In this document: one piece after another, positions 1 to 11,661 of the stretch
Layout: each line of letters opens with the position of its first letter
Position numbering within the stretch: the first letter of the stretch is position 1
Virus genome (UHGV): UHGV-0318018
Length of the DNA: 11,661 bases
DNA from: a virus
Strand: one strand, 5' to 3'
Translations under genes and position numbers: made by a program
The notes under the pieces: model-generated
Database searches by the model: none
Told to the model about the DNA's origin: nothing
The model's input: the letters and a program-made list of their open reading frames with translations, nothing else

Positions 1-23
1 TTGTTGCTGATAATGGCGAACAT

Positions 24-692
24 ATGGACTTCATTGCCGCAAATCAATGCCGGAGTCAGCCGGATGACGCAAAGCGGATAGAGTGTTATGACAAAGCTGT
101 AACTCCAACACGCACCAAAACATTAGAAAAGTTTGAAAGCAGGGATCAATGCAGGGATGAGGCGTGGGAGAAAAAAAGGCTGTCTTGCTATGATCGTTTT
201 TTTTCTCCAACATTTACTAATGCCAAGGTTGACAATGTACATAAAGACAGTAGGGATGTTGGGGACTGGAAAGTTGATATAAAAACATCTCCAATCGATG
301 ACTCTAAAAATGTTGTTATCTTTGTGAATGGTAATGATTCTTTTAGGTCCCCGTTTGGAGACAACATAACTCCAACTCTTTATATTGCGTGTAGGGAAAA
401 TAAAACAGAGCTGTTTATAGATTGGGATGTATACTTGGGGCTGAGTGAAACTACGATGATTCATCGAATAGATAAACAAAAAGCCATAAACAGAAAGTGG
501 TCTATTTCAACAAATACAAAGGCCGTCTTTTATGATGGTAATGTGATTGATTTTATAAGAAAGTTACAAAGTGGTAATCAGTTATTTGCTCAGATAACCC
601 CATATAGTGAAAGTCCGGTGAGCACAACCTTTAATCTCAAAGGTCTTTCTGAAGTTATTAAACCATTACAAGAATCATGTAACTGGAAATAG
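24..692 (+). CDS. Hypothetical protein in an AT-rich accessory gene; possibly 5'-truncated by the window edge
   Basis: 222-codon ORF, stop TAG at 690-692. The frame is open from position 3, so the true start may lie upstream. Composition is visibly more AT-rich than the phage tail genes. Contains a duplicated motif C-x9-R-[IL]-x-C-Y-D (CRSQPDDAKRIECYD and CRDEAWEKKRLSCYD). No family recognised by eye. Confidence 0.5.
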   Translation: MDFIAANQCRSQPDDAKRIECYDKAVTPTRTKTLEKFESRDQCRDEAWEKKRLSCYDRFFSPTFTNAKVDNVHKDSRDVGDWKVDIKTSPIDDSKNVVIFVNGNDSFRSPFGDNITPTLYIACRENKTELFIDWDVYLGLSETTMIHRIDKQKAINRKWSISTNTKAVFYDGNVIDFIRKLQSGNQLFAQITPYSESPVSTTFNLKGLSEVIKPLQESCNWK

Positions 693-719
693 CTATTGGT
701 GTTGTTTTCCGAATAATAA

Positions 720-752
720 CCCCGCGATTGTATATAGCGGGGTTATTATTTT
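720..752. terminator. Bidirectional rho-independent terminator between convergent genes
   Basis: Stem CCCCGC (720-725) pairs with GCGGGG (737-742) around an 11-nt loop, followed by TTATTATTTT (743-752) on + and a T-rich run on the - strand. Sits between the stop of the 24-692 ORF and the stop of the 770-1066 ORF. Confidence 0.5.
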
Positions 753-769
753 GGCCTGATTGTCAGGTA

Positions 770-1066
770 TCAGCCATATTTGCGGGCGAAATCTTCATCT
801 GAGGTGCATAGATAGATAAAAAATTCAATAAAAGCCACGATTGCCGGGATAAATGTCCAGCAAAAAATAAGGTAAAGAAATCCCTGCCCCACTTTACCTA
901 AATAAAATTTGTGTGCACCAAGACCACCTAAAAAGAAAGCCAGTAGTGCGGCTGTCATTCTGCTTTTTGAACTTGCTGTTCTTTGAGGTGCTCCACAATT
1001 GGGGCAGGATGTGGCATCTTTATGTATTTCCTTGCCGCATCCGCGGCAAAATACCATTTCACTCAT
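770..1066 (-). CDS. Small membrane protein with N-terminal zinc-ribbon (CxxC...CxxC) and TM2-like hydrophobic C-terminal domain
   Basis: 98-codon ORF. N-terminus CRGCG...CPNCG is a C4 zinc ribbon, followed by two hydrophobic segments (LLAFFLGGLGAHKFYLG and LYLIFCWTFIPAIVAFIEFFIYL). SD-like AAGGA sits 7 nt upstream of the ATG at 1066. Confidence 0.6.
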   Translation of the reverse strand: MSEMVFCRGCGKEIHKDATSCPNCGAPQRTASSKSRMTAALLAFFLGGLGAHKFYLGKVGQGFLYLIFCWTFIPAIVAFIEFFIYLCTSDEDFARKYG

Positions 1067-1170
1067 AAAGAGTTCCTTTCAAATTTAAACAAGCGTTAAG
1101 CCCACCACTCTTACTGGCGGGCCTCAATTTAAATTTGGGTGCCACTTCGACCTTACCCTGGCAACCGATT

Positions 1171-1192
1171 GACGGGGGATTGCTCCCCCGTC
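1171..1192. other. Perfect 9-bp stem hairpin (GACGGGGGA-TTGC-TCCCCCGTC) in the hok 3' flank
   Basis: Read directly from the sequence. Followed on + by GCGGTTTCC. Could be a transcript 3' structure of the hok mRNA or a terminator; function not established. Confidence 0.3.
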
Positions 1193-1201
1193 GCGGTTTC
1201 C

Positions 1202-1342
1202 TTACTGCTTACACTGTAAGAACGCCGCAAACTCCGCTCCCCAGAAGCTCATCCGTATTTCGCACAGCGAACCGTGCAGCATCCAGATGATGAGGATTGC
1301 CGTCACGCAGAACGTGATGGCCGTAAGCGATTTTTGCGACAT
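1202..1342 (-). CDS. hok: Hok/Gef-family type I toxin (small membrane-depolarising peptide)
   Basis: Hand translation of the - strand gives ATG(1342-1340) MSQKSLTAITFCVTAILIIWMLHGSLCEIRMSFWGAEFAAFLQCKQ stop TAA(1204-1202), 46 aa. It has an N-terminal TM helix followed by the SLCEIR motif and an E-x-AAF C-terminal region typical of Hok/HokA-E peptides. AAGGAG SD lies 8 nt upstream. It is absent from the ORF track because it is under 60 aa. Confidence 0.6.
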   Translation of the reverse strand: MSQKSLTAITFCVTAILIIWMLHGSLCEIRMSFWGAEFAAFLQCKQ

Positions 1343-1472
1343 AGCACTTGCTCCTTTTCCGGAGAGGCGCTAACCTTTCACTTGTCAAGGTAATGCGGTT
1401 AGGGCCTCGGTTAAACAGAAATGTTTTCCGGGGCCTTTCCACATCTGGCCTTCGGGTATTCCCTCCGACCAT
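1209..1472 (-). CDS. mok-like overlapping reading frame (modulation of killing) covering the hok gene in another frame
   Basis: 87-codon ORF that starts 130 nt upstream of the hok ATG and ends 7 nt before the hok stop, in a different frame. This geometry matches the mok/hok arrangement of plasmid R1. The sequence itself is not conserved enough to confirm. Confidence 0.3.
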   Translation of the reverse strand: MVGGNTRRPDVERPRKTFLFNRGPNRITLTSERLAPLRKRSKCYVAKIAYGHHVLRDGNPHHLDAARFAVRNTDELLGSGVCGVLTV

Positions 1473-1532
1473 CAGCCGAAAGGCACCCGCGCGTAATCTA
1501 TCGCTTTTTTGTTACTCCGGCAATTCTGTTAG

Positions 1533-1793
1533 TTAATTCTGAGATAAAGGCAAACTCATCTGATTGTTTCCCCTGTGTGAAGCTGGCAGCTCATGCCACG
1601 GGATACCTTCTGAAGAGTGAACGCCGGAGGCGTGTTTTGATGTGAATTTATGGAAAGCTTCCAGTGTTGAGAAGCATACGCCGCATTCCAGGTTGTTACA
1701 CTGGTAATACTTTTGCCGCACGGTGTTTGAATCATTTTCCGGACGACTGGTGCGGATACGGGCAGATGCGCCACAAAGCGGACAACGGAACAT
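1533..1793 (-). CDS. ogr: Ogr/Delta-family zinc-finger late transcription activator
   Basis: 86 aa beginning MFRCPLCG...YYQCNNLECGVCF, with the four Cys of the Ogr zinc finger at positions 4, 7, 32 and 37. Strong SD AAGGGAGG sits 5 nt upstream of the ATG at 1793. Lies immediately downstream of gpD as in P2. Confidence 0.85.
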   Translation of the reverse strand: MFRCPLCGASARIRTSRPENDSNTVRQKYYQCNNLECGVCFSTLEAFHKFTSKHASGVHSSEGIPWHELPASHRGNNQMSLPLSQN

Positions 1794-1835
1794 AGCGACC
1801 TCCCTTAACGTGGTGCTGCTGCTATTCTAAGTTGC

Positions 1836-2945
1836 TCACTCTGTTTCTGCTATCCATTCCGGGATTTTTGCCTCAAGCTCAAGCTGCGTGGTAAAGCCGC
1901 TGTTATCGATGGTGTGCTCGGCTTTTGCAATAATCCAGTCCTGATTATCAATCTCGCTTTTAAATCCTGTTACCGTGCCATGCATTTCGGGGTAGAGTTC
2001 TGCACGACCACGTGCCAGCGTGATGGAGAATGATGCGGCTCCGCGTTGTAGCTGCTGCCACTTTGCCGCCGCTGCGCGTCTTGCTGCCTGCTCGTTCTGA
2101 TAAGTCTTGCGTAACACAAACACATTGCCTTCCGCGCCTTCCATATAATCACCTTCACGGCTGCTGCTTTTCTCCTTTTTGGGTTTTGGCGGTTTGCGGC
2201 GTTTCACGCTGACTTTTTTCTTTTTCCCGTAATTAAGATCAAGCCAGTAAGCGCGTACCCCCGTATACGCCTCGCGGTCAGCAATGCGGAACTGATGGCG
2301 ATCGCCGCTACTGCGTGTGATGGCGAACGATGGCAACGGCTGGCCCTGTGCGTTCACGCCACCGCCGGGCATGATGAATAACAGATTACCGCTTTTTACC
2401 GTGGTGATTGCGCCCAGCATTTCCGCCATGCGCGTAAGGAAGGACATGTCACTTTCTTCGGTCTGGTCGGCGTGGTCGATTTCGATATCCATCAGCATTT
2501 CGCTGATTTGCGGTTTCAGACCGTACCGATGAGCGATGGCGGATACCACACGCTCAACGGTCACATCATGCCAGGACACCTCACGTTTAACGTTAAATTC
2601 ATCCCGAAAATCTGCGCTTCTGGCTGAAACAGTCAGCCTGTCCGGCGGTCCTTCGTGAGCGATTTCATCAACAATGTAAGTGCCTTTTTCTGTCAGCGGT
2701 TCTCCTTTCCAGCCAATGAGAACCGTCAGGCGCGCGCCCCGTGGCGGTAGCTGCAACTGACCATCTGCATCATCCAGCGTGATGGTGAGCTGGTCTGCTT
2801 CAAATCCCCGGTTGTCGGTCAGTGACAGGCTCATCAGGCGCTCTGCCACGCCTGACAGCGTTTTACCCTCCGCGAGAATATCAAAATCCGGCATTTTCAC
2901 GGGGTCTGTGCTCTGACTGAGCAATTGCATGGTGGTGTCGGTCAT
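1836..2945 (-). CDS. P2 gpD-like tail protein (late control gene D family)
   Basis: Long ORF 1836-2966. The preferred start is the ATG at 2945 (MTDTTMQLL...), preceded by GGGAGGG at 5-nt spacing. Size (about 369 aa) and position next to ogr match P2 gpD. Contains an unusual Lys/Arg-rich patch GKKKKVSVKRRKPPKPKKEK. Confidence 0.85.
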   Translation of the reverse strand: MTDTTMQLLSQSTDPVKMPDFDILAEGKTLSGVAERLMSLSLTDNRGFEADQLTITLDDADGQLQLPPRGARLTVLIGWKGEPLTEKGTYIVDEIAHEGPPDRLTVSARSADFRDEFNVKREVSWHDVTVERVVSAIAHRYGLKPQISEMLMDIEIDHADQTEESDMSFLTRMAEMLGAITTVKSGNLLFIMPGGGVNAQGQPLPSFAITRSSGDRHQFRIADREAYTGVRAYWLDLNYGKKKKVSVKRRKPPKPKKEKSSSREGDYMEGAEGNVFVLRKTYQNEQAARRAAAAKWQQLQRGAASFSITLARGRAELYPEMHGTVTGFKSEIDNQDWIIAKAEHTIDNSGFTTQLELEAKIPEWIAETE

Positions 2946-3101
2946 CTTTCCCTCCCTGTGCGGCATGGTCGCATGTGCGTGCGGAGGGGGTTACTGCTTT
3001 TTGTTGTCGCCGTGGCGGGAGAACGGCGCAGGGGTGAGATTACGCGCGTGGTGGGTGATGATTGTTGCCGAATCATTTAACGGATACAAGGGGCTGAAGC
3101 T
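2946..3101. promoter_or_regulatory. Divergent intergenic region expected to carry promoters for D-ogr (leftward) and the FI-U operon (rightward)
   Basis: 156-bp gap between divergent start codons, each with a good SD. No exact Ogr box (TGT-N12-ACA) was found by eye, so promoter positions are not assigned. Confidence 0.35.
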
Positions 3102-4286
3102 ATGAGTGAAACTCGTTTTCATGGTGCCCGTGTCACGGAAAGTACCGACCTGGTAACAGCGGTTAATGATGTTGATTCCAGCGTTATCGGTATCGTGGCA
3201 ACGGCGGATGATGCGGATGCGGAGCTGTTCCCGCTGAACAAGCCCACACTGCTGACCCGCGTCAATGACGTGCTGGGAAAATGCGGTACTACGGGGACGC
3301 TTTATCGTGCGCTTAAGGCTATCGCAGACCAGGTGAGCACAAAGGTGATCGTCGTTCGCGTGGCTGAACACAAAAAAGAAGGCGGTAAGACGCAGGATCA
3401 ACTGGTTATCGGTGGTTCTGAGGATGACGGCAGCTATACGGGGATGTATGCGCTGCTTGTTGCAGAGCAGGATGAAAGCATCGGATACCGTCCGCGCATT
3501 CTGGCTGCGCCGGAGCTGGACACGGAGGCGGTGACAAAATCTCTGTGCGTGATTGCAGGTAAACTGCGCGCGTTTGTGTATGCCTCATGTCATGGCTGTG
3601 ACACGATGGCCGAGGCAATTACCTACCGCCAGAAATTCAACGAACGTGAGGTGATGCTCTTATGGCCGGACTTTATCGCCTACAACCCGAAAAGTGGCAA
3701 AAACGAAACGTTCCCCGCGCCTGCCTATGCGTGCGGCCTTCGTGCGTACATTGACCATGAGCAGGGCTGGCACAAATCGCTGTCCAACGTTCCGGTTAAA
3801 AATGTGCTGGGGATGTCCAGGCATGTGTTCTGGTCGTTGCAGGCCGAAGACAGTGATGCCAACAGCCTCAACAACAAAGAAATCACGACCATTATTCGTC
3901 GCAACGGGTTCCGCTTCTGGGGCAACCGCACACCGGAAACGAACGCCTACATCTTTGAGGTGTATACCCGAACCGCACAGGTGCTGGCTGATTCAATTGC
4001 GGAAGCGCAGTTTGAAACCATCGACAGTCCACTGACGCCTGCGAATGTGAAGGATGTTATCAGTGCCATCAGGGCAAAACTGGATTCACTGGTTACTGCC
4101 GGGAAACTGATTGGGGCGTCGTGCTGGTATGACGTGGTGGATAACGGCACCACGAATTTACGTCAGGGGCGCGTGCGTATTCGCTACAAATATACGCCTG
4201 TTCCCCCGCTGGAAGACATGGAGCTTTACCAGTCGTTTACTGATGAATTCTTTGGTCCCGCATTTGCGGTGCTGGGAGGTGCCTGA
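3102..4286 (+). CDS. Contractile tail sheath protein (P2 gpFI family)
   Basis: 394 aa. Conserved sheath blocks visible, e.g. DADAE.FPLNKP, KLRAF.Y, WPDF.A, EQGWHK.LSNV, IRR.GFRFWGNRT, NYTRTAQV, YTPVPPLE. AAGGGG SD upstream of the ATG. Confidence 0.9.
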   Translation: MSETRFHGARVTESTDLVTAVNDVDSSVIGIVATADDADAELFPLNKPTLLTRVNDVLGKCGTTGTLYRALKAIADQVSTKVIVVRVAEHKKEGGKTQDQLVIGGSEDDGSYTGMYALLVAEQDESIGYRPRILAAPELDTEAVTKSLCVIAGKLRAFVYASCHGCDTMAEAITYRQKFNEREVMLLWPDFIAYNPKSGKNETFPAPAYACGLRAYIDHEQGWHKSLSNVPVKNVLGMSRHVFWSLQAEDSDANSLNNKEITTIIRRNGFRFWGNRTPETNAYIFEVYTRTAQVLADSIAEAQFETIDSPLTPANVKDVISAIRAKLDSLVTAGKLIGASCWYDVVDNGTTNLRQGRVRIRYKYTPVPPLEDMELYQSFTDEFFGPAFAVLGGA

Positions 4287-4798
4287 TGGCTGTACCAAAA
4301 CATCTTCGCTTTTTTACGCTGTTTGTGGATGGTGAAAACGAAGTGGGTAAGGTGACGTCCGTCACTCTACCTAAGCTGACGCGCAAAACCGACAGCTACC
4401 GGGGTGGTGGCATGATGGGTGCGGTAAGTATTGATCTCGGTCTGGACGACTCCGCGCTTGATGCGAGCTTTGTCATGGGGGGCGCAGTTCGTGAGCTGTT
4501 CCTTAAGTATGGCGGCACGATTGACGGCACGCTGCTGCGTTTTGCGGGTGAATACTACACCGATGCAGAAAGCGACCTGTATGAAGTCGAAATGCGCGGA
4601 CGTGTGACGGAAATTGATATGGGGGAAGCCAAACAGGGCGAAGCCACATCACACAATTACGCCATTAAAAACACCTACTACAAGCTGAGTGTTAACGATC
4701 GCCCGTTGTGGGAGATTGACCTGCTGAACTTCATTTACCGGAAGGACGGCAAGGACATTGTGCCCGATCGCATCCGTTCCGCGCTCGGGCTTGGCTGA
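4286..4798 (+). CDS. Tail tube protein (P2 gpFII family)
   Basis: 170 aa. The start overlaps the FI stop by 1 nt (TGATG), with GGGAGG SD. Motifs VTLPKLTRK..YRG.GM and LRFAG.Y are typical of FII tube proteins. Confidence 0.9.
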   Translation: MAVPKHLRFFTLFVDGENEVGKVTSVTLPKLTRKTDSYRGGGMMGAVSIDLGLDDSALDASFVMGGAVRELFLKYGGTIDGTLLRFAGEYYTDAESDLYEVEMRGRVTEIDMGEAKQGEATSHNYAIKNTYYKLSVNDRPLWEIDLLNFIYRKDGKDIVPDRIRSALGLG

Positions 4799-4852
4799 TA
4801 AGTAATATGCAGGCGGCGCAGTGCGTCGCCTCTGACTGAAAGGAGTTTCCTG

Positions 4853-5218
4853 ATGAAAGAGACGAAAAACATCGATACCGAAAACACGGTAGTTACTGAC
4901 ACTGTGAAAGAAACCAGTGAGCGTGGCGTAAAACTTACCCAACCAATTGAGCGAGGCGGCGAAAAAATCACGTATGTGGAGATCACCGGGGCTATTGAGC
5001 AGGCTGGATCTCTGCGAGATTTGTCGCTGTCTGATGTGCTGAATCTGAAAGCGGAATCCATGTTTACGCTGCTGTCACGCGTGACATCACCGCGACTGGA
5101 TGAAGTGACGATCAAAAAAATGGCATCCCGTGACTTTATTCAGTTATGTGTGGTTGCCGTAAATTTTTTGAGCGGTGCGGACTCTGGCGGGAAGAACGAA
5201 CAGGCGACGGAAGCCTGA
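4853..5218 (+). CDS. Tail assembly chaperone gpE (zero-frame product)
   Basis: 121-codon ORF with AAAGGAG SD 7 nt upstream. It sits between the tube and tape measure genes and carries a slippery TTTTTTG near its 3' end, as in P2 E. Confidence 0.7.
   Translation: MKETKNIDTENTVVTDTVKETSERGVKLTQPIERGGEKITYVEITGAIEQAGSLRDLSLSDVLNLKAESMFTLLSRVTSPRLDEVTIKKMASRDFIQLCVVAVNFLSGADSGGKNEQATEA
5164..5170 (+). other. Programmed -1 ribosomal frameshift slippery heptamer TTTTTTG (E to E')
   Basis: T TTT TTG in the E frame (codons NFL). The -1 frame continues open to the TGA at 5380-5382. The same heptamer mediates the E/E' frameshift in P2. Confidence 0.6.
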
Positions 5219-5382
5219 TCACGGTTGTGTGCTTTGAGCACATAGAAGACTTTGTGGCGGATATTGCCGCCATTTTTAACTGGTCGCCCGCCGAAATCTT
5301 CATGATGACGCCCGGCGAAGTGGTTAGCTGGCGTGAGCGGGCGGCACTTCGCAGCGGGAATGCAGACAATGAAGACTCTTGA
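5170..5382 (+). CDS. E' extension; the fusion product E+E' is made by a -1 frameshift at 5164-5170
   Basis: The -1 frame is open from the slippery site to 5382 (ERCGLWREE...FVADIAAIFNWSPAEIF...LRSGNADNEDS). This is the G/GT-like chaperone arrangement upstream of the tape measure gene. Confidence 0.6.
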   Translation, partial: ERCGLWREERTGDGSLITVVCFEHIEDFVADIAAIFNWSPAEIFMMTPGEVVSWRERAALRSGNADNEDS

Positions 5383-8176
5383 TATCCGGGTCGCTTTCAG
5401 CGCCGTTGACAGGCTGACCCGGCCTGCCGAAAACGCCCGCCGCCTGATGGGGCAGTTTGGTGACTCCATCCAGCGAACGCAGGGGGCGATCAAAAATCTC
5501 GAGCGTCAGGCGCGATCATTTGAGCGCGCCCGCGACGCTGTCAGTAAAGCGGATGCGGGTATCGTGAAAGCACGACGCCAGCTTAACGCCCTTAATCAGT
5601 TACAACGCACGGGTACAGTGCTCAGCGAAAAACAACAAAAGCTGATGCAGCAGTTAAGCACCCGGCTTGAACGCCTGAATGAATCGCGCACACGGGAAAT
5701 TCAAAAAATGCGGGAGCTTGGCGGAGAGCTGAAACGCCACGGCATTTCCCTGACAGGCAGCGATAACACCATCCAGCAGGCCATCAGACGCACCGAACAG
5801 TACAACAACCAGCTTGAACGCGAACGGCAGGCGCTTGCACGTGTAACGCGGGCGCGTGAGCGGTATTCGCGCGCGCAGGAAACAGCGGGAAAACTGAAAA
5901 CAGGTGGTGCGCTGGCAACTGGTGCGGCAGCGGCGGGCGGCTATGCTGCCGGGCGTTTTTTGCAGCCTGCGATCGGGTTCGGCAAAGAGATGTCCCGCGT
6001 TCAGGCACTGACGCGAATCGACAAAAACAGCCCGCAGTTTAAGGCGCTGCGTGAGCAGGCGTTAAAACTTGGCTCTGAAACACAGTTTACTGCGAGTGAT
6101 GCCGCCAGTGGACAGAGCTTTCTGGCAATGGCTGGTTTTACTCCGCAGGCCATTCAGGCTGCACTTCCCGGCGTGCTGAGCATGGCAACGGCTGGCGGTA
6201 TGGATCTCGGCGAGACGGCGGATATTGGCTCAAATATCCTGACGCAGTTCGGCCTTTCTGCTGACCAGATGGACCGGGTCGGTGACACGCTCACCGCAGC
6301 GTTTACCCGTACCAACACTGACCTTCGCGCACTTGGCGAAACCATGAAATATGCAGGTCCGGTGGCGGGCAAGCTGGGAATATCGCTGGAGCAGGCCGCA
6401 GCGATGGCGGGCGTACTGGCGAATATGGGTATCAGGGGAAGTGATGCCGGGACGGCAATGCGTGCCAGCCTGGCTCGTCTGGCATCACCGCCAAAGGCGG
6501 CGGCAGAAGCTCTGAAAGAGCTGGGCGTGTCCGTCTCTGATGCGAATGGCAAAATGCGCCCGATGGAAGATCTGCTGGCTGACCTTTATAAAGCCACCCG
6601 CAAATACGGGGAAGTTGACCGGGTATCGTTCTTTAAGGACATTGCCGGGGGAGAGGCTTTCACATCGTTTATGGCACTCGTTGATGCGGCGGGTGACGGT
6701 TCCTTACCCAAACTGAGAAAAGAACTTGAGGGCGCACGCGGTGAGGCTGAACGCACGGCAAAGGTGATGGCCGACAACCTTGATGGCGACCTGAAAAATC
6801 TGGACAGCGCATGGGAAGGTCTGCGTATTCGCATTGCAGATCTGATTGACGGTCCGCTGCGTTCTGTCACGCAGTGGCTCACGCGGGTGGTCTCAAAGGT
6901 GACGGCGCTGGCGCAGGCCCATCCGGCACTGACGCGCCAGCTACTGATAGCAGGCGGTGCGCTGCTGGCAATGACTGCAACGGTCGGCTCGTTGTCGCTG
7001 GTTATTGGGGTGCTTTACGGGAAGCTGGCCACCCTGCGTCTTGGTTTCGACATTCTTACCCGGTCAATGAATGTCGTCAGGGTGTTGCCTGCGCTGTGGG
7101 GAATGGTGACGGGTTCCGTTTCTTTACTGGGAGGCGCCATCGGGGCGTTGTTCAGTCCGGTTGGTCTTATCGTGGCTGCGCTTGCCGGAGCTGCCGTTCT
7201 TATCTGGAAATACTGGGATCCCATCAGGGCATTTTTTGCCGGGGTGTTCAGCGGGATTATGGAAAGGCTGACCCCGTTGCGCGAAACCTTTGAACGGTTT
7301 GGTCCTGTTTTTGACGCAATCGGAAGCGGGATCAGCCAGGTGTTTAACTGGTTTAAATCGCTGCTGTCACCGATGGAATCCAGCAAGGAAACGCTGGATA
7401 AATGTACCAGTGCTGGCGAGATATTCGGTAACGTTCTTGGTGGCGCGTTACAACTTGTTCTGACGCCTGCAAAAATGCTGCTGGATACGCTGGCGTGGAT
7501 ACTTGAAAAACTTGGCGTCCTTCCGGATGAAGCGGAAAGGGCGCGCAAGAAAATCGAAGACGCACAGCGTGCGGCCATTCTTCAGGACAAGGTTGCCTTG
7601 CTTCAGGGGGACCTGGCGAAAATCAATCCGCCGAAGCCTGTGGAAAATGGCAATGGCACCGGAGGTGATAAACCCAAAGACAACAAACCGCTCACAGACA
7701 GCAATACCGGGACGCTACGCAGACTCAGCAAAATTGCTGATAACACAGGTAAGCTGGTTGATGAGACGAAAAAACGCATTGGCCCCGGCGATATTGTCTT
7801 TAAGAACCTGCCCCGCGCACTTGCTGTTCGTGGGGAGTGGCAGGAGCGGAAGATTGCGCAGGTCAGTAAGTCTGCCCCCGCAATGAATATCACACCCGTG
7901 GTTCCGGCTCCGCTGCCTCCGGCGCTGGTCCCTGTTGTTGCGACCAGCTCCCGCCCGGTGGCAGAGGCCATACGATCGCCAGTGGCATCAGTTCCTGCAA
8001 CTTCCCGTAACCGGGAACCTGTTGCCTCCGGATTTGGCGGTGAAATTCATGTTCATCTGCATAACGTTGTTACGCAGAATCCCCGCGAACTGGCGAAACT
8101 GGTCGGTGAAATGGTCAGGGCAGAAATGGAACGGCGCGCCCGTGCCGGGCGTGGCAGTTTTTACGATAAAGATTGA
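5369..8176 (+). CDS. Tail tape measure protein (P2 gpT family)
   Basis: Long ORF open from the GTG at 5333; in-frame ATGs at 5360 and 5369. 5369 is preferred because GGGAA lies 8 nt upstream. Shows a coiled-coil-rich N-terminus, a TMP core (DLRALGETMKYAGPVAGKLGISLEQAAAMAGVLANMGIRGSDAGTAMRASLARL) and Gly/Ala-rich hydrophobic segments. Confidence 0.85.
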   Translation: MKTLDIRVAFSAVDRLTRPAENARRLMGQFGDSIQRTQGAIKNLERQARSFERARDAVSKADAGIVKARRQLNALNQLQRTGTVLSEKQQKLMQQLSTRLERLNESRTREIQKMRELGGELKRHGISLTGSDNTIQQAIRRTEQYNNQLERERQALARVTRARERYSRAQETAGKLKTGGALATGAAAAGGYAAGRFLQPAIGFGKEMSRVQALTRIDKNSPQFKALREQALKLGSETQFTASDAASGQSFLAMAGFTPQAIQAALPGVLSMATAGGMDLGETADIGSNILTQFGLSADQMDRVGDTLTAAFTRTNTDLRALGETMKYAGPVAGKLGISLEQAAAMAGVLANMGIRGSDAGTAMRASLARLASPPKAAAEALKELGVSVSDANGKMRPMEDLLADLYKATRKYGEVDRVSFFKDIAGGEAFTSFMALVDAAGDGSLPKLRKELEGARGEAERTAKVMADNLDGDLKNLDSAWEGLRIRIADLIDGPLRSVTQWLTRVVSKVTALAQAHPALTRQLLIAGGALLAMTATVGSLSLVIGVLYGKLATLRLGFDILTRSMNVVRVLPALWGMVTGSVSLLGGAIGALFSPVGLIVAALAGAAVLIWKYWDPIRAFFAGVFSGIMERLTPLRETFERFGPVFDAIGSGISQVFNWFKSLLSPMESSKETLDKCTSAGEIFGNVLGGALQLVLTPAKMLLDTLAWILEKLGVLPDEAERARKKIEDAQRAAILQDKVALLQGDLAKINPPKPVENGNGTGGDKPKDNKPLTDSNTGTLRRLSKIADNTGKLVDETKKRIGPGDIVFKNLPRALAVRGEWQERKIAQVSKSAPAMNITPVVPAPLPPALVPVVATSSRPVAEAIRSPVASVPATSRNREPVASGFGGEIHVHLHNVVTQNPRELAKLVGEMVRAEMERRARAGRGSFYDKD

Positions 8177-8188
8177 GGAGTCATGGCC

Positions 8189-8677
8189 ATGATGATGATC
8201 TACGGCATGTTTGTTTTTGAGCTGCGCACGCTGCCGCATCAGCAGTTACAGCAAAACAAAAGCTGGCGGCATGTGAAAAATGAACGCGTTAACCGTTCAG
8301 CAAGCTGGCAGTATATCGGTGCAGGTGATGATCGCATCGTGCTTTCTGGTGTGCTTTATCCTGAAATTACAGGTGGCGAAGTGTCGCTGTCGCTGCTGAC
8401 CACGCAGGCGTATACAGGACACCCCTGGCCTCTGATTGATGGCGTCGGGCAGATTTACGGCATGTATGTCCTGACCGACACGAATACGACCCGTTCCGAG
8501 TTTGATTGCTACGGCAAGGCGAAAAAGATAGAGTTTTCACTGACACTTGAACGCTGTGATGAAGATTTGCGGGAGCGACTACAATCCTCATCGTTCAGCG
8601 ATATGCTGTCCGGCCTCAAAGATAAGGTGACGTCATCCCTTAACAGCGCGGCCAGCTCCGTTAAAGGGCTGTTTTGA
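8189..8677 (+). CDS. Tail protein gpU (P2 U family)
   Basis: ORF from 8183 (MAMMMIYGMFVFELRTLPHQQLQQNKSWRH...). The ATG at 8189 is favoured because GAGGAG at 8175-8180 then has 8-nt spacing. Motifs LQQ..SWRH and LSG.LYPE.TGG are shared with P2 gpU. Confidence 0.85.
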   Translation: MMMIYGMFVFELRTLPHQQLQQNKSWRHVKNERVNRSASWQYIGAGDDRIVLSGVLYPEITGGEVSLSLLTTQAYTGHPWPLIDGVGQIYGMYVLTDTNTTRSEFDCYGKAKKIEFSLTLERCDEDLRERLQSSSFSDMLSGLKDKVTSSLNSAASSVKGLF

Positions 8678-8684
8678 TTAACGC

Positions 8685-8714
8685 AAAACCGCTAATGGTC
8701 AGATTAGCGGTTTT
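8685..8714. terminator. Bidirectional terminator hairpin between U and the invertase gene
   Basis: AAAACCGCTAAT (8685-8696) pairs with ATTAGCGGTTTT (8703-8714) around a 6-nt loop, with T-runs on both strands. The invertase stop codon lies within the right arm. Confidence 0.5.
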
Positions 8715-9303
8715 CATTTTCCTGAGTCTGCCTGGTTGTTTCTTCAGCCTGTATATCGCCTACAGGGTGATAACGATAAATCGTCGATATGCCGATGTCG
8801 TAAATGATCGCCAGTTGTTTCCTGTCATGACCGTTTTTAATCAGCCTCGCTATTTGCTCGTGTTGTTCTTTTGTCAACTTCGGGCGACGTCCGCCAATGC
8901 GTCCTTGTGCGCGTGCTGCTGCCAGCCCGGCCAGTGTACGCTCTACAATTAATTCACGTTCCATTTCGGCTAAAGCCCCCATGACGTGAAAAAAGAAACG
9001 CCCCATGGGTGTTGATGTGTCAATGCTGTCCGTCAGACTACGGAAATTAACACCTTTTTCCCGCAATTCCTCAATAAGCGTGATCAGGTGTTTCATACTT
9101 CTGCCCAGTCTGTCCAGCTTCCAGACAACCAGCGTATCTCCTTCTGATAGCGTTCTGAGCAGTTTTTTCAATCCCGGTCTGGCTGATTTCGTTCCGCTGA
9201 TTTTATCTTCAAAAATCAGTTCACATCCTGCGCAGTTCAGTGCATTGCGTTGTAAATCCGTGTTTTGGTCATTTGTTGACACACGAATATAGCCAATTTG
9301 CAT
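8704..9303 (-). CDS. Serine DNA invertase, Pin/Gin/Cin/Hin family
   Basis: The true start is the ATG at 9303 (MQIGYIRVSTNDQNTDLQRNAL...), with AAAGAGGA SD. Resolvase catalytic N-terminus with active-site Ser in GYIRVSTNDQ, plus the motifs LVVWKLDRLGRS, GRFFFHVMGALAEMERELIVERTLAGLAAARAQGRIGGRRP and a C-terminal HTH. The longer ORF-track start at 9432 is an upstream artefact. Confidence 0.9.
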   Translation of the reverse strand: MQIGYIRVSTNDQNTDLQRNALNCAGCELIFEDKISGTKSARPGLKKLLRTLSEGDTLVVWKLDRLGRSMKHLITLIEELREKGVNFRSLTDSIDTSTPMGRFFFHVMGALAEMERELIVERTLAGLAAARAQGRIGGRRPKLTKEQHEQIARLIKNGHDRKQLAIIYDIGISTIYRYHPVGDIQAEETTRQTQENENR

Positions 9304-9357
9304 AAAAAACATCCTCTTTGTTTCGTGAAAAATACATAGTTGGTATAGGTAGGGATA

Positions 9358-9383
9358 AAGACGAAAACGTTGGTTTAGGAGAA
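9358..9383. promoter_or_regulatory. Candidate 26-bp invertase crossover site (cix/gix-like), overlapping the invertase promoter region
   Basis: AAGACGAAAACG-TT-GGTTTAGGAGAA. The right half, read on the other strand, is TTCTCCTAAACC, resembling Hin-family half-sites (TT.TC..AAACC). The left half is degenerate. It lies 55-80 bp upstream of the invertase ATG, where gixR/cixL-type sites sit. Not verified. Confidence 0.25.
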
Positions 9384-9521
9384 GGCTCGGCGCTACCCGT
9401 TGGTGTGCCTGTTCCGTGGCCCACCGCCACACCGCCAGCAGGCTGGTTAAAGTGCGACGGGCGCGCCTTTACAAAAGAACAATATCCTGTTCTGGCCAGA
9501 GTCTACCCGACCCTCCGTCTT
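9366..9521 (+). pseudogene. Tail-fibre collar fragment (NVGLGEGSALPVGVPVPWPTATPPAGWLKCDGRAFTKEQYPVLARVYPTLRL), truncated at a recombination junction
   Basis: Conserved tail-fibre collar motif G.P.PWP..PAGWL.C.G..F....YP.LA..YP. Homology ends abruptly at 9521/9522, where inverted repeat IR-A begins. There is no start codon and no N-terminal shaft. Confidence 0.45.
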
Positions 9522-9631
9522 ATATCAGCACGGCACCTGAAATCAGCTGGCCGGAAGCGCCACTGGCACTTGCCAGCTGAACGGTATCACGCCGCCCTCA
9601 CGATATAGTTAAACGCGATATTGCGGGGGCG
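9522..9631. repeat. IR-A left arm (110 bp), inverted copy of 10103-10212
   Basis: Reverse complement of 10103-10212 with 4 mismatches by hand alignment. Contains the fibre 3' end (RPRNIAFNYIVRAA stop) on the - strand and a Tfa 3' end on the + strand. Confidence 0.85.
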
Positions 9632-10148
9632 GGTTATGTTAAAGAATGCTCCGTTTAATTCGGCTTTTGCGCGACTGTTTGTTCCACCCAGAATTGCGTA
9701 CCACTTGCCTGTTGGTGTGCCTGTTCCGTGGCCCACCGCCACACCGCCAGCAGGCTGGTTACAGTGCAACGGAGCTACGTTCACCAAAGGACAATATCCT
9801 GTTCTGGCCAGAGTCTACCCGACCCTCCGTCTTCCCGATTTGCGCGGTGAGTTTATCCGTGGATGGGACGGTGGTCGCAAGGTTGATACCGGGCGTGCGC
9901 TACTTTCATTTCAGGAAGGGACTATCGTATCCGGTTTTGATGATAATGATACCGGAGATATCAGTTCGCTCGGCTCTACACAATATGGATTTGGTGACGC
10001 TTTAACCTCTAATCAACTGGGGGTCATAAATGACAAAAAGTGGATATTTGATGCATCCTCTAAAGGTGCACAAAGATATGACTGGTGGGCTTATGTATCA
10101 GCTCGCCCCCGCAATATCGCATTTAACTATATCGTGAGGGCGGCGTGA
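9621..10148 (+). CDS. Tail-fibre C-terminal cassette 1 (collar plus receptor-binding tip), lacking the N-terminal shaft
   Basis: Open frame containing LPVGVPVPWPTATPPAGWLQCNGATFTKGQYPVLARVYPTLRLPDLRGEFIRGWDGGRKVDTGRA..., ending RPRNIAFNYIVRAA. Collar motifs match Mu S / P1 S / P2 H-type fibres. Only a TTG or an internal ATG (9636) is available as a start, so it is probably silent unless fused to a constant region. Confidence 0.55.
   Translation: MRGRVMLKNAPFNSAFARLFVPPRIAYHLPVGVPVPWPTATPPAGWLQCNGATFTKGQYPVLARVYPTLRLPDLRGEFIRGWDGGRKVDTGRALLSFQEGTIVSGFDDNDTGDISSLGSTQYGFGDALTSNQLGVINDKKWIFDASSKGAQRYDWWAYVSARPRNIAFNYIVRAA
9756..9870. repeat. IR-B left arm (115 bp, collar-coding), inverted copy of 11098-11212
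   Basis: Reverse complement of 11098-11212 with 2 mismatches. Encodes WLQCNGATFTK.QYPVLARVYPTLRLPDLRGEFIRGWD in both cassettes. Confidence 0.85.
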
Positions 10149-10212
10149 TACCGTTCAGCCGGCAAGCGCCAGTGGCGCTTCCGGCCAGCTGATTTCAGGT
10201 GCCTTGCTGATA
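10103..10212. repeat. IR-A right arm (110 bp)
   Basis: See IR-A left arm. Spans the convergent 3' ends of cassette 1 (+) and the tail-fibre assembly gene (-). Confidence 0.85.
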
Positions 10213-10769
10213 TTCAGTGCGTTCAGCTCGTCGATATAATCCAGCACGGCGTTCAGTTTTGCCGTTTCTTCTGGTGTCAGACTGCGACCAGCACGCAGTT
10301 TGAGGTTGATAAGATCGACGGACGCCATCGCCTGTTTCACCCGTTGCTGGCGTTGCTGTCTGGCAACCTCCAGTTCTGCGGCTCGCTGCCGTTCAGTATC
10401 GGTTACCCACGCCTCACCGTTCCAGGTATCCCATGGCGTGGCTGGCTGTTTTGTGGTGGTGTCCGCCGGGTAATCACCCGGTTGGGTAATCAGAACGGGG
10501 TTACCGTTCTCCGTGCTGTATACCGTCTCGCCGCGGTGATCAGGCACATGCTCCCACCCGTTCAGCGTGGCAGTCCGGCAAACCACGTAACCCGAAATTG
10601 CCTCCGGCGGTGCATCGGCGCACGAATGTGCCGGAGTACCCACCCCAAGGGCGAGATACTCCACAGAGGATGAGGTGTATTCCCGGGTTTCCTCGTCATA
10701 GTGATATACAGTGATATCGCCCGCTACAGTGGCGATACCGTTTTCATCCAGAACTGCAGTGTTACTCAT
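10155..10769 (-). CDS. Tail fibre assembly protein (Tfa / P2 gpG / Mu U-like chaperone)
   Basis: 204 aa. The ATG at 10769-10767 overlaps the stop of cassette 2 (TAATG), with GAGGG SD. The C-terminal half (TDTERQRAAELEVARQQRQ...PEISWPEAP) has the acidic/coiled-coil and WPE features typical of Tfa chaperones. Confidence 0.8.
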   Translation of the reverse strand: MSNTAVLDENGIATVAGDITVYHYDEETREYTSSSVEYLALGVGTPAHSCADAPPEAISGYVVCRTATLNGWEHVPDHRGETVYSTENGNPVLITQPGDYPADTTTKQPATPWDTWNGEAWVTDTERQRAAELEVARQQRQQRVKQAMASVDLINLKLRAGRSLTPEETAKLNAVLDYIDELNALNISKAPEISWPEAPLALAG

Positions 10770-11220
10770 TAAACTGCCCTCACAATGTAATTAAGTGCAA
10801 TGCTACGGGGTCTGACAGTGATACCCTTCGCATACCCGCTTCTGATAGAGGTCAGAATAGTAGCCTGCATACCATTGTCTGACATTGCCATGACAGGATC
10901 GCTGAATGTTGTCCCGTCCGGCATTTTAAAGCTGCCCTCACGAAGGTCTGTAATGGAATCTTCATTGTTGAATCCCATGCCGACTATCCCCGAGGTTCCC
11001 GTAGTGTCCTGGTTATAATAATCCAGCATTGCTGTTCTTAACAGCGTTGCCCCTTGTGCGGACAGCAACTTACGTCCTGTATCAACTTTGCGCCCGTCGT
11101 CCCATCCACGGATAAACTCACCGCGTAAATCGGGAAGACGGAGGGTCGGGTAGACTCTGGCCAGAACAGGATATTGTTCTTTGGTGAACGTAGCTCCGTT
11201 GCACTGTAACCATGCAACAT
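10769..11220 (-). CDS. Tail-fibre C-terminal cassette 2 (collar plus distinct tip), start-less, translationally coupled to the downstream Tfa
   Basis: Hand translation of the - strand gives one continuous frame: WLQCNGATFTKEQYPVLARVYPTLRLPDLRGEFIRGWDDGRKVDTGRKLLSAQGATLLRTAMLDYYNQD...ITVRPRSIALNYIVRAV stop. It is open back to an in-frame stop at 11245-11243. The ORF-track TTG start at 11068 is internal, and there is no ATG. Confidence 0.55.
11098..11212. repeat. IR-B right arm (115 bp)
   Basis: See IR-B left arm. Confidence 0.85.
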
Positions 11221-11486
11221 TTATTCGTACAGCTTTGCAGGATTATTACGGTTACGATCTGAATACTAATGTCAAAGTAGGTATCGCTTTTGCTACTGCT
11301 GATTCTGTTATAACCGTTGGAAACCCAGCTAATCCTAAAGCAGGAAATAATAGCGATTATGTTCCTGCATCAGCAGATAACTCTATAACGGGTATTCAAA
11401 GGACAGCGGAGGATAATTTTACCGGGGCATGGATATCAATGCGCCCCCGCAATGTTGCGTTTAATTACATCGTAAGGGCCGCATAA
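11211..11486 (+). CDS. Tail-fibre tip cassette 3 (collar-less), start-less
   Basis: Frame reads HATFIRTALQDYYGYDLNTNVKVGIAFATADSVITVGNPANPKAGNNSDYVPASADNSITGIQRTAEDNFTGAWISMRPRNVAFNYIVRAA stop. It aligns with the post-collar part of cassette 2 (ATLLRTAMLDYYNQD...) and shares the C-terminal RPRN.AFNYIVRAA end. There is no in-frame ATG; the ORF-track N-terminus MVNVAPLHCN is the antisense of the collar. Confidence 0.45.
   Translation, partial: HATFIRTALQDYYGYDLNTNVKVGIAFATADSVITVGNPANPKAGNNSDYVPASADNSITGIQRTAEDNFTGAWISMRPRNVAFNYIVRAA
11251..11368. repeat. IR-C left arm (118 bp, perfect), inverted copy of 11544-11661
   Basis: Exact reverse-complement identity over 118 bp, verified base by base. 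The inner end carries a 29-bp near-palindrome GCAGGAAATAATAGCGATTATGTTCCTGC (11340-11368). Confidence 0.9.
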
Positions 11487-11573
11487 AAACGTTGGTTTGG
11501 GGGAAGGCTCTGCATTGCCTGTTGGTGTGCCTGTTCCGTGGCCGCAGGAACATAATCGCTATTATTTCCTGCT
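11476..11573 (+). pseudogene. Truncated collar-start fragment (GPHKNVGLGEGSALPVGVPVPWP) fused at 11543/11544 to inverted cassette sequence
   Basis: Third direct copy of the CTGTTGGTGTGCCTGTTCCGTGGCC collar start. Homology to the other copies ends at 11543, and the frame then runs through the antisense of cassette 3 to a TAG. Confidence 0.4.
11480..11505. promoter_or_regulatory. Second candidate cix/gix-like site, directly after the cassette 3 stop codon
   Basis: CGCATAAAAACG-TT-GGTTTGGGGGAA. The half-site read on the other strand is TTCCCCCAAACC. Same orientation as the 9358-9383 candidate, and followed by the same collar-start sequence. Confidence 0.2.
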
Positions 11574-11661
11574 TTAGGATTAGCTGGGTTTCCAACGGTT
11601 ATAACAGAATCAGCAGTAGCAAAAGCGATACCTACTTTGACATTAGTATTCAGATCGTAAC
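11544..11661. repeat. IR-C right arm (at least 118 bp; truncated by the window end)
   Basis: Exact reverse complement of 11251-11368. On the - strand it encodes the same tip segment (...DLNTNVKVGIAFATADSVITVGNPANPKAGNNSDYVPA), entering from beyond the window. Confidence 0.9.

What the first reader, a model, noticed from the sequence alone, without database searches (positions are those of the whole stretch)
10155..11220. Cassette 2 and its Tfa chaperone form an intact, translationally coupled but start-less module
The cassette 2 stop and the Tfa start overlap (TAATG). The fibre frame is continuous for about 150 codons with an intact collar and the C-terminal NYIVRAV end. It has no ATG and no shaft, so it looks like a ready-to-use silent cassette awaiting fusion by inversion.
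Basis: partly seen in the sequence, partly recalled or inferred. Interest (0 to 1): 0.35.

Follow-up and report, generated by a model that had tools for sequence, protein, structure and literature searches.

The report
Spare phage tail-fibre tip, stranded
This is a spare receptor-binding tip for a prophage tail fibre plus its folding helper, part of a well-known DNA-flipping host-range switch that is common in E. coli, but in this sequence the copy has lost the flip site it would need to be used.

Summary
On the minus strand, a 204-aa tail fibre assembly gene (Tfa, 10155-10769) starts one base inside the stop codon of a start-less fibre C-terminal cassette (TAATG). The cassette frame is open for 157 codons, 147 of them homologous. 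It ends in NYIVRAV and has no shaft.

Two details are wrong. The collar domain is N-terminally clipped (Pfam positions 15-57 of 57). In-frame ATGs exist inside the cassette.

The module belongs to a Gin/Cin/Pin/Min-type multi-cassette inversion switch of a P2-like (P88-like) E. coli prophage. The same block occurs in 593 of 5,426 complete E. coli genomes. The cassette is fused to the constant fibre shaft in 239 of them and silent in others. A three-site version was PCR-validated in EPEC in 2014.

This copy is not "ready to use". It lacks its crossover site and about 24 head codons, and ends at a blunt junction (11212/11213). That is one of four blunt junctions found in no other sequence searched. 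The two surviving sites are direct repeats. A near-identical prophage (1 mismatch in 9.5 kb) continues canonically across the first junction. Real decay and mis-assembly cannot be told apart here.

This is a known kind of system and of low interest.

The parts
10155..10769 (-). Tail fibre assembly protein (Tfa), 204 aa, intact
   Evidence: ORF. Pfam PF02413 positions 1-130 of 131, E 8e-27. phrog_105, E 2e-87. 99.0-99.5% DNA identity to Tfa genes of relatives. The exact protein is found on two independent short contigs.
10769..11212 (-). Cassette 2: start-less fibre C-terminal cassette (147 codons plus stop TAA at 10771-10769), made of a clipped collar head and a variable receptor-binding body ending NYIVRAV
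   Evidence: Translation. Collar PF07484 positions 15-57 of 57. phrog_523 'tail collar fiber protein' positions 503-638 of 673. Colinear with residues 441-587 of the AF10 fibre.
10767..10781 (-). Coupling signal: GAGGG Shine-Dalgarno-like motif inside the VRAV codons, 7-nt spacer, and TAATG stop/start overlap
   Evidence: Sequence. The 1-nt overlap is conserved in relatives.
11212..11213 (.). Junction J3: blunt, homology-free. Cassette 2 is cut at WLQCNG and abuts the start of cassette 3's body head-to-head. The crossover site and 24 head codons are missing here.
   Evidence: blastn map. Parental alignment shows 0 nt of microhomology. Absent from 5,426 complete E. coli genomes and from genome, metagenome and viral contig collections.
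11213..11242 (-). Ten further open codons (SCKAVRINVA) that are not fibre sequence; they are the antisense of the first codons of cassette 3
9705..10148 (+). Cassette 1, convergent partner in the same former invertible segment. It has a full collar but is also clipped of its site (28 nt missing).
   Evidence: Window 9705-11212 is colinear with L002 6794-8301, L004 and L003 at 98.1%. Collar positions 1-57 of 57. No GLGEGSA motif upstream.
8704..9303 (-). Serine DNA invertase (Gin/Cin/Pin/Min/Hin family), 199 aa
   Evidence: Resolvase plus HTH_7 domains. Matches Mu Gin structures 3UJ3 and 4M6F at E 1e-90 over residues 1-185. phrog_125.
9358..9383 (+). Canonical 26-bp crossover site 1 (...aaacg TT GGTTTAGGAGAA, core TT at 9370-9371). 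It leads into a head that is cut at 9521/9522 (J1).
11480..11505 (+). Canonical crossover site 2 (core TT at 11492-11493), in the same orientation as site 1. It leads into a head that is cut at 11543/11544 (J4).

Best explanation
What it is. The region is one half of the invertible host-range switch of a P2-like (P88/Peduovirinae-type) E. coli prophage. It holds an alternative C-terminal receptor-binding cassette of the tail fibre gene and, coupled to it, the only tail fibre assembly chaperone (Tfa) of the array.

How the canonical system works. The fibre gene has a constant N-terminal shaft outside the switch. Every cassette begins with a 26-bp crossover site (aaacg-TT-GGTTTRGGRGAA, which encodes GLGEG). 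Next comes a roughly 70-codon conserved collar 'head', then a variable body ending in RPRxIAxNYIVRA(A/V). A Gin-like serine invertase next to the array exchanges DNA between inverted sites. This brings a different cassette in frame behind the shaft. When cassette 2 is the one fused, ribosomes that terminate at its TAA can restart at the overlapping ATG of Tfa, which also has its own GAGG.

Shown and inferred. The cassette and Tfa anatomy, the invertase, the sites, and the existence of both silent and fused states in other genomes are shown here. Translational coupling, chaperone specificity and the host-range effect are inferred from Mu, P1 and P2 biology.

This copy. In this sequence the module's coding body is intact, but the cassette lacks its site and the first 24 or so head codons. 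The former invertible segment (9705-11212) has lost both of its sites, and the two remaining sites are direct repeats. As sequenced, the invertase cannot fuse this cassette to a shaft. It is a stranded copy, produced either by real blunt-ended rearrangement or by mis-assembly of a repeat-rich, heterogeneous region.
For: - Domain identities.
- Colinearity of 9705-11212 with the canonical segment of relatives at 98%. The block is present in one piece in 593 of 5,426 complete E. coli genomes.
- Silent state: L001 and L002, annotated as a pseudogene 'missing N-terminus' followed by Tfa.
- Fused state: L004, and 239 genomes in total. Partial fibres P0005 and P0011 show the same fusion.
- Relatives carry between 1 and 7 cassettes or collar-bearing ORFs and never more than one Tfa. 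The Tfa always overlaps one specific cassette.
- Site anatomy. 67 of 68 cassettes in relatives keep the site motif, against 0 of 2 in the window.
- All four junctions are blunt and found nowhere else.
- A near-identical prophage, L021 (1 mismatch in 9,521 nt), continues canonically across J1 into a site-bearing cassette 2.
- Published PCR proof of a three-repeat, four-variant, three-C-terminus switch in a P2-like prophage of EPEC (PMC4272514).
Against: - No read-level or expression data exist for this locus.
- The right flank, where the constant shaft is presumed to lie, is outside the window, so the present expression state cannot be seen.
- Cassette 2 still has about 150 nt of head that is 87-91% identical to other heads. 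Homologous recombination, as opposed to invertase action, could therefore still reconnect it.
- If J1-J4 are assembly artefacts, the 'stranded' part of the statement applies to the sequence and not to the organism.
Confidence: 0.85

Rival explanations
1. One reading: a fully functional silent cassette plus Tfa, waiting to be fused to the constant fibre exon by a single site-specific inversion in this very locus.
For: - The cassette body and Tfa are intact and 96-99% identical to copies that are expressed elsewhere.
- An intact invertase is adjacent.
- The near-identical prophage L021 has a site-bearing cassette 2.
- If J1-J4 are mis-assembly, this reading is correct for the real genome.
Against: - As sequenced there is no crossover site within or next to cassette 2.
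- Its collar head is clipped.
- The two sites in the window are direct repeats, and each leads into a truncated head.
Confidence: 0.3
2. Assembly chimera. The invertible region exists as several isomers, and/or a second related prophage or P1-like phage-plasmid is present in the sample. The assembler stitched pieces together, creating junctions J1-J4 and the terminal fold-back.
For: - Four blunt junctions lie within 2.1 kb of inverted repeats, and none lies elsewhere in the 11.7-kb window.
- A 118-nt, 100% identical inverted repeat runs exactly to the end of the window.
- The junctions appear in no other genome or contig searched.
- L021 is canonical across J1.
- Short-read contigs of the same strain break inside the heads.
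- The fragments flanking the central block match a different allele: 9364-9704 is 100% identical to the plasmid pAVS0973-B copy, and its Tfa tail differs by 4% from the intact Tfa.
Against: - De Bruijn assemblers need shared k-mers at joins, and these joins have no homology at all. An artefact would therefore have to come from chimeric long reads or from consensus polishing.
- No reads are available to test this.
Confidence: 0.5
3. Genuine decay. The switch has been scrambled by illegitimate (non-conservative) deletions and inversions, leaving a prophage with no functional fibre and a fossil cassette-Tfa pair.
For: - Every site-proximal frame ends in junk. Site 1 leads to J1 and then a stop. 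Site 2 leads to J4 and then a stop. The minus-strand frame entering from the right end stops 25 codons after J4.
- Decayed switches occur in relatives: an IS insertion in L012 and L005, a truncated fibre in L003, and a frameshifted cassette in L004.
Against: - All other tail genes are intact.
- A relative with 1 mismatch in 9.5 kb lacks J1. Four independent blunt events would therefore have to be very recent.
- The junction pairs are not reciprocal, so they are not invertase products.
Confidence: 0.35
4. The element is a tailocin (R-type bacteriocin) and not a phage, and the cassette switches killing spectrum.
For: The window holds only tail genes. Carotovoricin Er is a precedent for inversion-switched tailocin fibres (cited in PMC4272514).
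Against: Relatives that carry the identical invertase have capsid, terminase, lysis and integrase genes around the same tail module. ogr and a hok-like gene mark a P2-type prophage end.
Confidence: 0.05

Closest known systems
Three-repeat tail-fibre 'shufflon' of a P2-like prophage in EPEC E2348/69 (Goldberg et al. 2014, PMC4272514)
   Same: A P2-like prophage with an adjacent invertase, three partially homologous repeats, four isomers and three alternative C-termini for one fibre protein. The inversions are about 1.8 and 2.2 kb. Relative L001 has sites 1.6 and 2.1 kb apart.
   Different: I did not verify that it is the same prophage. The window has only two sites, in direct orientation, and the cassette in question has none.
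Phage Mu G segment / Gin (S-U versus S'-U')
   Same: The invertase is a close Gin homologue (E 1e-90 to 3UJ3). The crossover sites lie inside the fibre gene. Variable C-terminal parts are followed by a Tfa (U).
   Different: Mu has two cassettes, each with its own Tfa. This family has up to seven cassettes sharing one Tfa.
Plasmid p15B Min multiple-inversion cluster (Sandmeier et al. 1990, cited in PMC5903667) and the phage P1 C segment / Cin
   Same: A cluster of overlapping invertible segments that carry 3' fibre gene parts. Relative L008 has six sites. P1-like plasmid pAVS0973-B carries the same cassettes and Tfa.
   Different: Here the host element is a chromosomal P2-like prophage. Direct sequence comparison with p15B was not possible, because the paper and record are not held.
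e14 Pin P segment (stfE/tfaE) of E. coli K-12
   Same: A cryptic-prophage invertase that fuses a start-less fibre 3' part to a constant ORF (PMC4272514).
   Different: e14 has a two-state switch. Its cassettes and context belong to a lambdoid remnant.

Membership tests
Gin/Cin/Pin/Min-type invertible tail-fibre switch | Small serine invertase (resolvase catalytic domain plus C-terminal HTH) adjacent to the segment | tested here: met
   PF00239 plus PF02796. Mu Gin structures match at E 1e-90.
Gin/Cin/Pin/Min-type invertible tail-fibre switch | The cassette is bounded at its 5' end by a 26-bp crossover site with a 2-bp core, inverted relative to the site at the constant gene part | tested here: not met
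   The window has only two sites (cores at 9370-9371 and 11492-11493). Both are on the + strand and neither is at cassette 2. The feature is met in relatives: 67 of 68 cassettes.
Gin/Cin/Pin/Min-type invertible tail-fibre switch | A constant N-terminal fibre part to which cassettes are fused in frame | tested here: inconclusive
   No shaft is present in the window. It is present on the far side of the array in all relatives, so it presumably lies beyond position 11661.
Gin/Cin/Pin/Min-type invertible tail-fibre switch | Both orientations (silent and fused) are observed | tested here: met
   For the cassette type: it is silent in L001 and L002 and fused in L004 and 239 genomes. For this locus itself this was not testable.
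Gin/Cin/Pin/Min-type invertible tail-fibre switch | Fis-dependent recombinational enhancer | not tested
   No scan was done. In Hin, Gin and Cin the enhancer lies in the 5' part of the invertase gene (my own knowledge).
Tail fibre assembly protein (Caudo_TAP, P2 G / Mu U / lambda Tfa) | Full-length match to the family profile, encoded immediately downstream of the fibre tip | tested here: met
   PF02413 positions 1-130 of 131. phrog_105. 1-nt overlap with the cassette stop.
Phage tail collar domain (PF07484) | Complete domain | tested here: not met
   Only profile positions 15-57 of 57 match in cassette 2, against 1-57 in cassette 1.
Multiple-inversion cluster (p15B Min-like shufflon) | Three or more crossover sites in both orientations, giving more than two isomers | tested here: not met
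   The window has two sites with the same orientation. Relatives have 3 to 6 or more sites.

The most novel reading that the evidence does not exclude
Junctions J1-J4 may be real. In that case this is a multi-cassette fibre switch caught just after being scrambled by several blunt, non-reciprocal, non-homologous rearrangements confined to the invertible region. They could come from mis-repaired invertase-induced breaks or from exchange with a second resident prophage or phage-plasmid. The result would leave cassettes and the only Tfa stranded without sites, which would point to a specific failure and decay route for shufflon-type switches.

A related open point concerns the single Tfa that serves up to seven alternative tips. 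In many isomers it lies antisense to the fibre gene. This implies either an independent promoter or that most tips do not need it.
Probability: 0.3. Interest if true: 0.35.

Novelty: already known. Interest (0 to 1): 0.13.

Why it matters
Invertible fibre cassettes set the host range of temperate phages and of phage-derived particles. Knowing which cassette-Tfa pairs exist is useful for engineering phages and tailocins.

This particular pair is already present and annotated in hundreds of E. coli genomes, so the finding adds no new biology.

The practical lesson is about annotation and assembly. Such regions are routinely broken or scrambled in assemblies. A cassette should be called 'usable' only if its crossover site and full head are present.

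Tried and rejected
- Source contig and junctions. I searched for the source contig and for any other carrier of the four junctions. The searches were junction-spanning megablast against 5,426 complete E. coli genomes, exact junction patterns in genome, metagenome and viral contig collections, and exact look-ups of five junction-spanning ORFs. All were negative.
- Invertase products. I tested whether the junction pairs could be reciprocal products of conservative recombination at quasi-sites. The breakpoints are not reciprocal: undoing a J3/J4 inversion leaves a 22-nt deletion and a 156-nt duplication. They also show no half-site or core. This idea was rejected.
- De Bruijn mis-join. I considered joins at shared k-mers and rejected this because all four joins have 0 nt of homology.
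- Silent-module promoter. A sigma-70 scan found 1 site against 2.7 expected by chance, so there is no support.
- RNA families. Rfam finds none in the window.
- Selection. A dN/dS-type comparison was uninformative because there are too few differences.
- The p15B Min paper is not held.

Full report
**What is in the window.**
- The ORF map and relatives show a P2-like (P88/Xuanwuvirus-type) prophage tail module. From left to right it contains:
  - a VasI-like ORF, a TM2 protein and a hok-like toxin;
  - ogr and gpD, on the minus strand;
  - sheath, tube, gpE, tape measure and gpU, on the plus strand;
  - a 199-aa serine invertase (8704-9303, minus strand);
  - an array of tail-fibre C-terminal cassettes from about 9360 to the end of the window.
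- The invertase has Resolvase and HTH_7 domains. It matches the Mu Gin crystal structures at E 1e-90.

**Check of the observation.**
- On the minus strand the sequence reads ...ATT GTG AGG GCA GTT TAA TG AGT AAC....
- The cassette stop TAA (10771-10769) and the Tfa ATG (10769-10767) share one base. A GAGGG motif lies 7 nt upstream of the ATG.
- Tfa (10155-10769, 204 aa) is a complete Caudo_TAP protein.
- The cassette frame is open for 157 codons (11242->10772). Only the last 147 (from WLQCNG at 11212) are fibre sequence. They align without gaps to residues 441-587 of the 588-aa fibre of E. coli AF10.
- The C-terminus is NYIVRAV, and there is no shaft sequence upstream.
- Two details are wrong. 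The Pfam Collar domain is N-terminally truncated (profile positions 15-57 of 57), whereas cassette 1 has 1-57. In-frame ATG codons also exist inside the cassette.

**What the module is, judged from relatives.**
- Window 9705-11212 holds cassette 1 on the plus strand, and Tfa and cassette 2 on the minus strand. It is colinear at 98% with the invertible segment of other E. coli prophages.
- The block is present in one piece in 593 of 5,426 complete E. coli genomes.
- In canonical relatives every cassette starts with a crossover site, aaacg-TT-GGTTTRGGRGAA. This site encodes GLGEG and has the Hin/Gin/Cin/Pin architecture as I recall it. A conserved collar head follows, then a variable body ending RPRxIAxNYIVRA(A/V).
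- The constant shaft ends ...IKDVLNYLGLGEG at such a site.
- Relatives examined carry between one and seven cassettes or collar-bearing ORFs beside the fibre gene, and never more than one Tfa. The Tfa start always overlaps the stop of one particular cassette by one base.
- The cassette 2 type is silent in E. coli TUM13770 and BEC1-S17. RefSeq calls it a pseudogene 'missing N-terminus'.
- It is fused to the shaft in AF10. The contiguous shaft-site-head-cassette 2 join is found in 239 of 5,426 complete genomes. Partial fibres P0005 (147 sequences) and P0011 show it too.
- Goldberg et al. (PMC4272514) showed by sequencing and PCR that a P2-like prophage of EPEC with three repeats exists as four coexisting isomers, giving three alternative C-termini.
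- The kind of system is therefore established.

**Why this copy is not 'ready to use'.**
- The window holds only two canonical sites (cores at 9370-9371 and 11492-11493). Both are in the same orientation.
- Cassette 2 has no site. Its head stops at 11212, and the next base starts the body of cassette 3 on the other strand.
- Cassette 1 has also lost its site: 28 nt are missing at 9705.
- In 18 relatives, 67 of 68 collar cassettes keep the site-encoded motif in frame, and the one exception is a frameshift. In the window, neither of the two complete cassettes does.
- A blastn map and parental alignments define four junctions: 9521/9522, 9704/9705, 11212/11213 and 11543/11544. All are blunt, with no microhomology.
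- The junctions are not reciprocal. Conservative invertase action therefore does not explain them, and neither do k-mer mis-joins.
- Each site-proximal head runs into one of these junctions and then into junk and a stop. So does the frame entering from the right end of the window.
- As sequenced, no single site-specific inversion would yield a complete fibre.

**Real or artefact?**
- None of the junctions occurs in 5,426 complete E. coli genomes, in the genome, metagenome or viral contig collections, or as a recorded gene product.
- A draft genome contig (GCA_003298255.1, locus L021) matches window 1-9521 with one mismatch. It then continues canonically across the first junction into a complete, site-bearing cassette 2.
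- Short-read contigs identical to window 1-8420, 9841-11125 and 9871-11097 exist in other samples. Those covering the cassette block end inside the repeated heads.
- The window ends in a 118-nt perfect fold-back.
- The fragment at 9364-9704 is 100% identical to the copy on a P1-like plasmid. Its Tfa tail differs by 4% from the intact Tfa. This suggests that sequence from a second element is present.
- These facts lean towards a chimeric assembly. Blunt joins are not what de Bruijn assemblers make, however, and decayed switches do occur in relatives.
- I leave this unresolved, at roughly even odds.

**Mechanism and confidence.**
- Shown: the identity of the invertase, the cassette and Tfa; the site anatomy; the conserved 1-nt overlap; and the silent and fused states in other genomes.
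- Inferred from Mu, P1 and P2 biology: the invertase swaps cassettes at the TT core, translation of Tfa is coupled to that of cassette 2, Tfa folds the tip, and the tip sets the receptor.
- The system works like the Mu G, P1 C and p15B Min switches, and it belongs to that family at the level of the array in relatives.
- The specific copy fails the defining test of having its own crossover site.

**Verdict.** This is an ordinary, already annotated cassette-Tfa pair of a known switch. The copy is clipped and site-less in this sequence. Interest is low.

Noticed in passing
window 9521/9522, 9704/9705, 11212/11213, 11543/11544: There are four blunt junctions with no microhomology in the cassette array. 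They are not reciprocal and they occur in no other sequence searched. Relative to plasmid copy L005, the first is a 921-bp deletion that removes most of a second cassette 2 and its Tfa.
   Followed up: yes
window 11251-11368 versus 11544-11661: A 118-nt, 100% identical inverted repeat (cassette 3 body) runs exactly to the end of the window. This fold-back is typical of a contig-end artefact. If real, it truncates the fibre frame that enters from the right.
   Followed up: partly
window 9522-9631: This is a remnant of a second Tfa C-terminus (ISTAPEISWPEAPLALAS*) with a convergent cassette tail. It is 96% identical to 10104-10213. It matches the canonical allele, whereas the intact Tfa ends ISKAPEISWPEAPLALAG.
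   Followed up: partly
L008 14600-18040; L014, L016, L017, L020: Close relatives carry five to seven tandem cassettes in both orientations (six sites in L008) but only one Tfa. In many isomers the Tfa is antisense to the fibre gene. How Tfa is expressed then, or whether most tips need it at all, is unclear.
   Followed up: partly
L007 (E. coli ST131 strain 4/0) 1-8508: Two P2-like baseplate and fibre modules face each other across the cassette-Tfa block. This suggests a large chromosomal inversion between two prophages through their fibre switch regions.
   Followed up: no
window 1202-1342 (-): A 46-aa Hok/Gef-type toxin ORF (phrog_251 MokW-like, E 1e-22) lies at the prophage end. No Sok-type RNA reached the Rfam threshold.
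   Followed up: partly
window 24-692 (+): This 222-aa ORF has a VasI-like domain (PF11319 in the 249-aa homologue of L021; phrog_1848). The first 764 nt are absent from the best-matching complete E. coli prophages. In L021 they lie next to tamA-tamB.
   Followed up: partly
window 11061-11212 and 9756-9907: Cassette 2 carries a 'WLQCNGATF' head variant. In canonical relatives that variant belongs to the invertase-proximal cassette, while canonical cassette 2 has 'WLKCDGRAF'. Heads therefore appear to be shuffled between cassettes by recombination.
   Followed up: no
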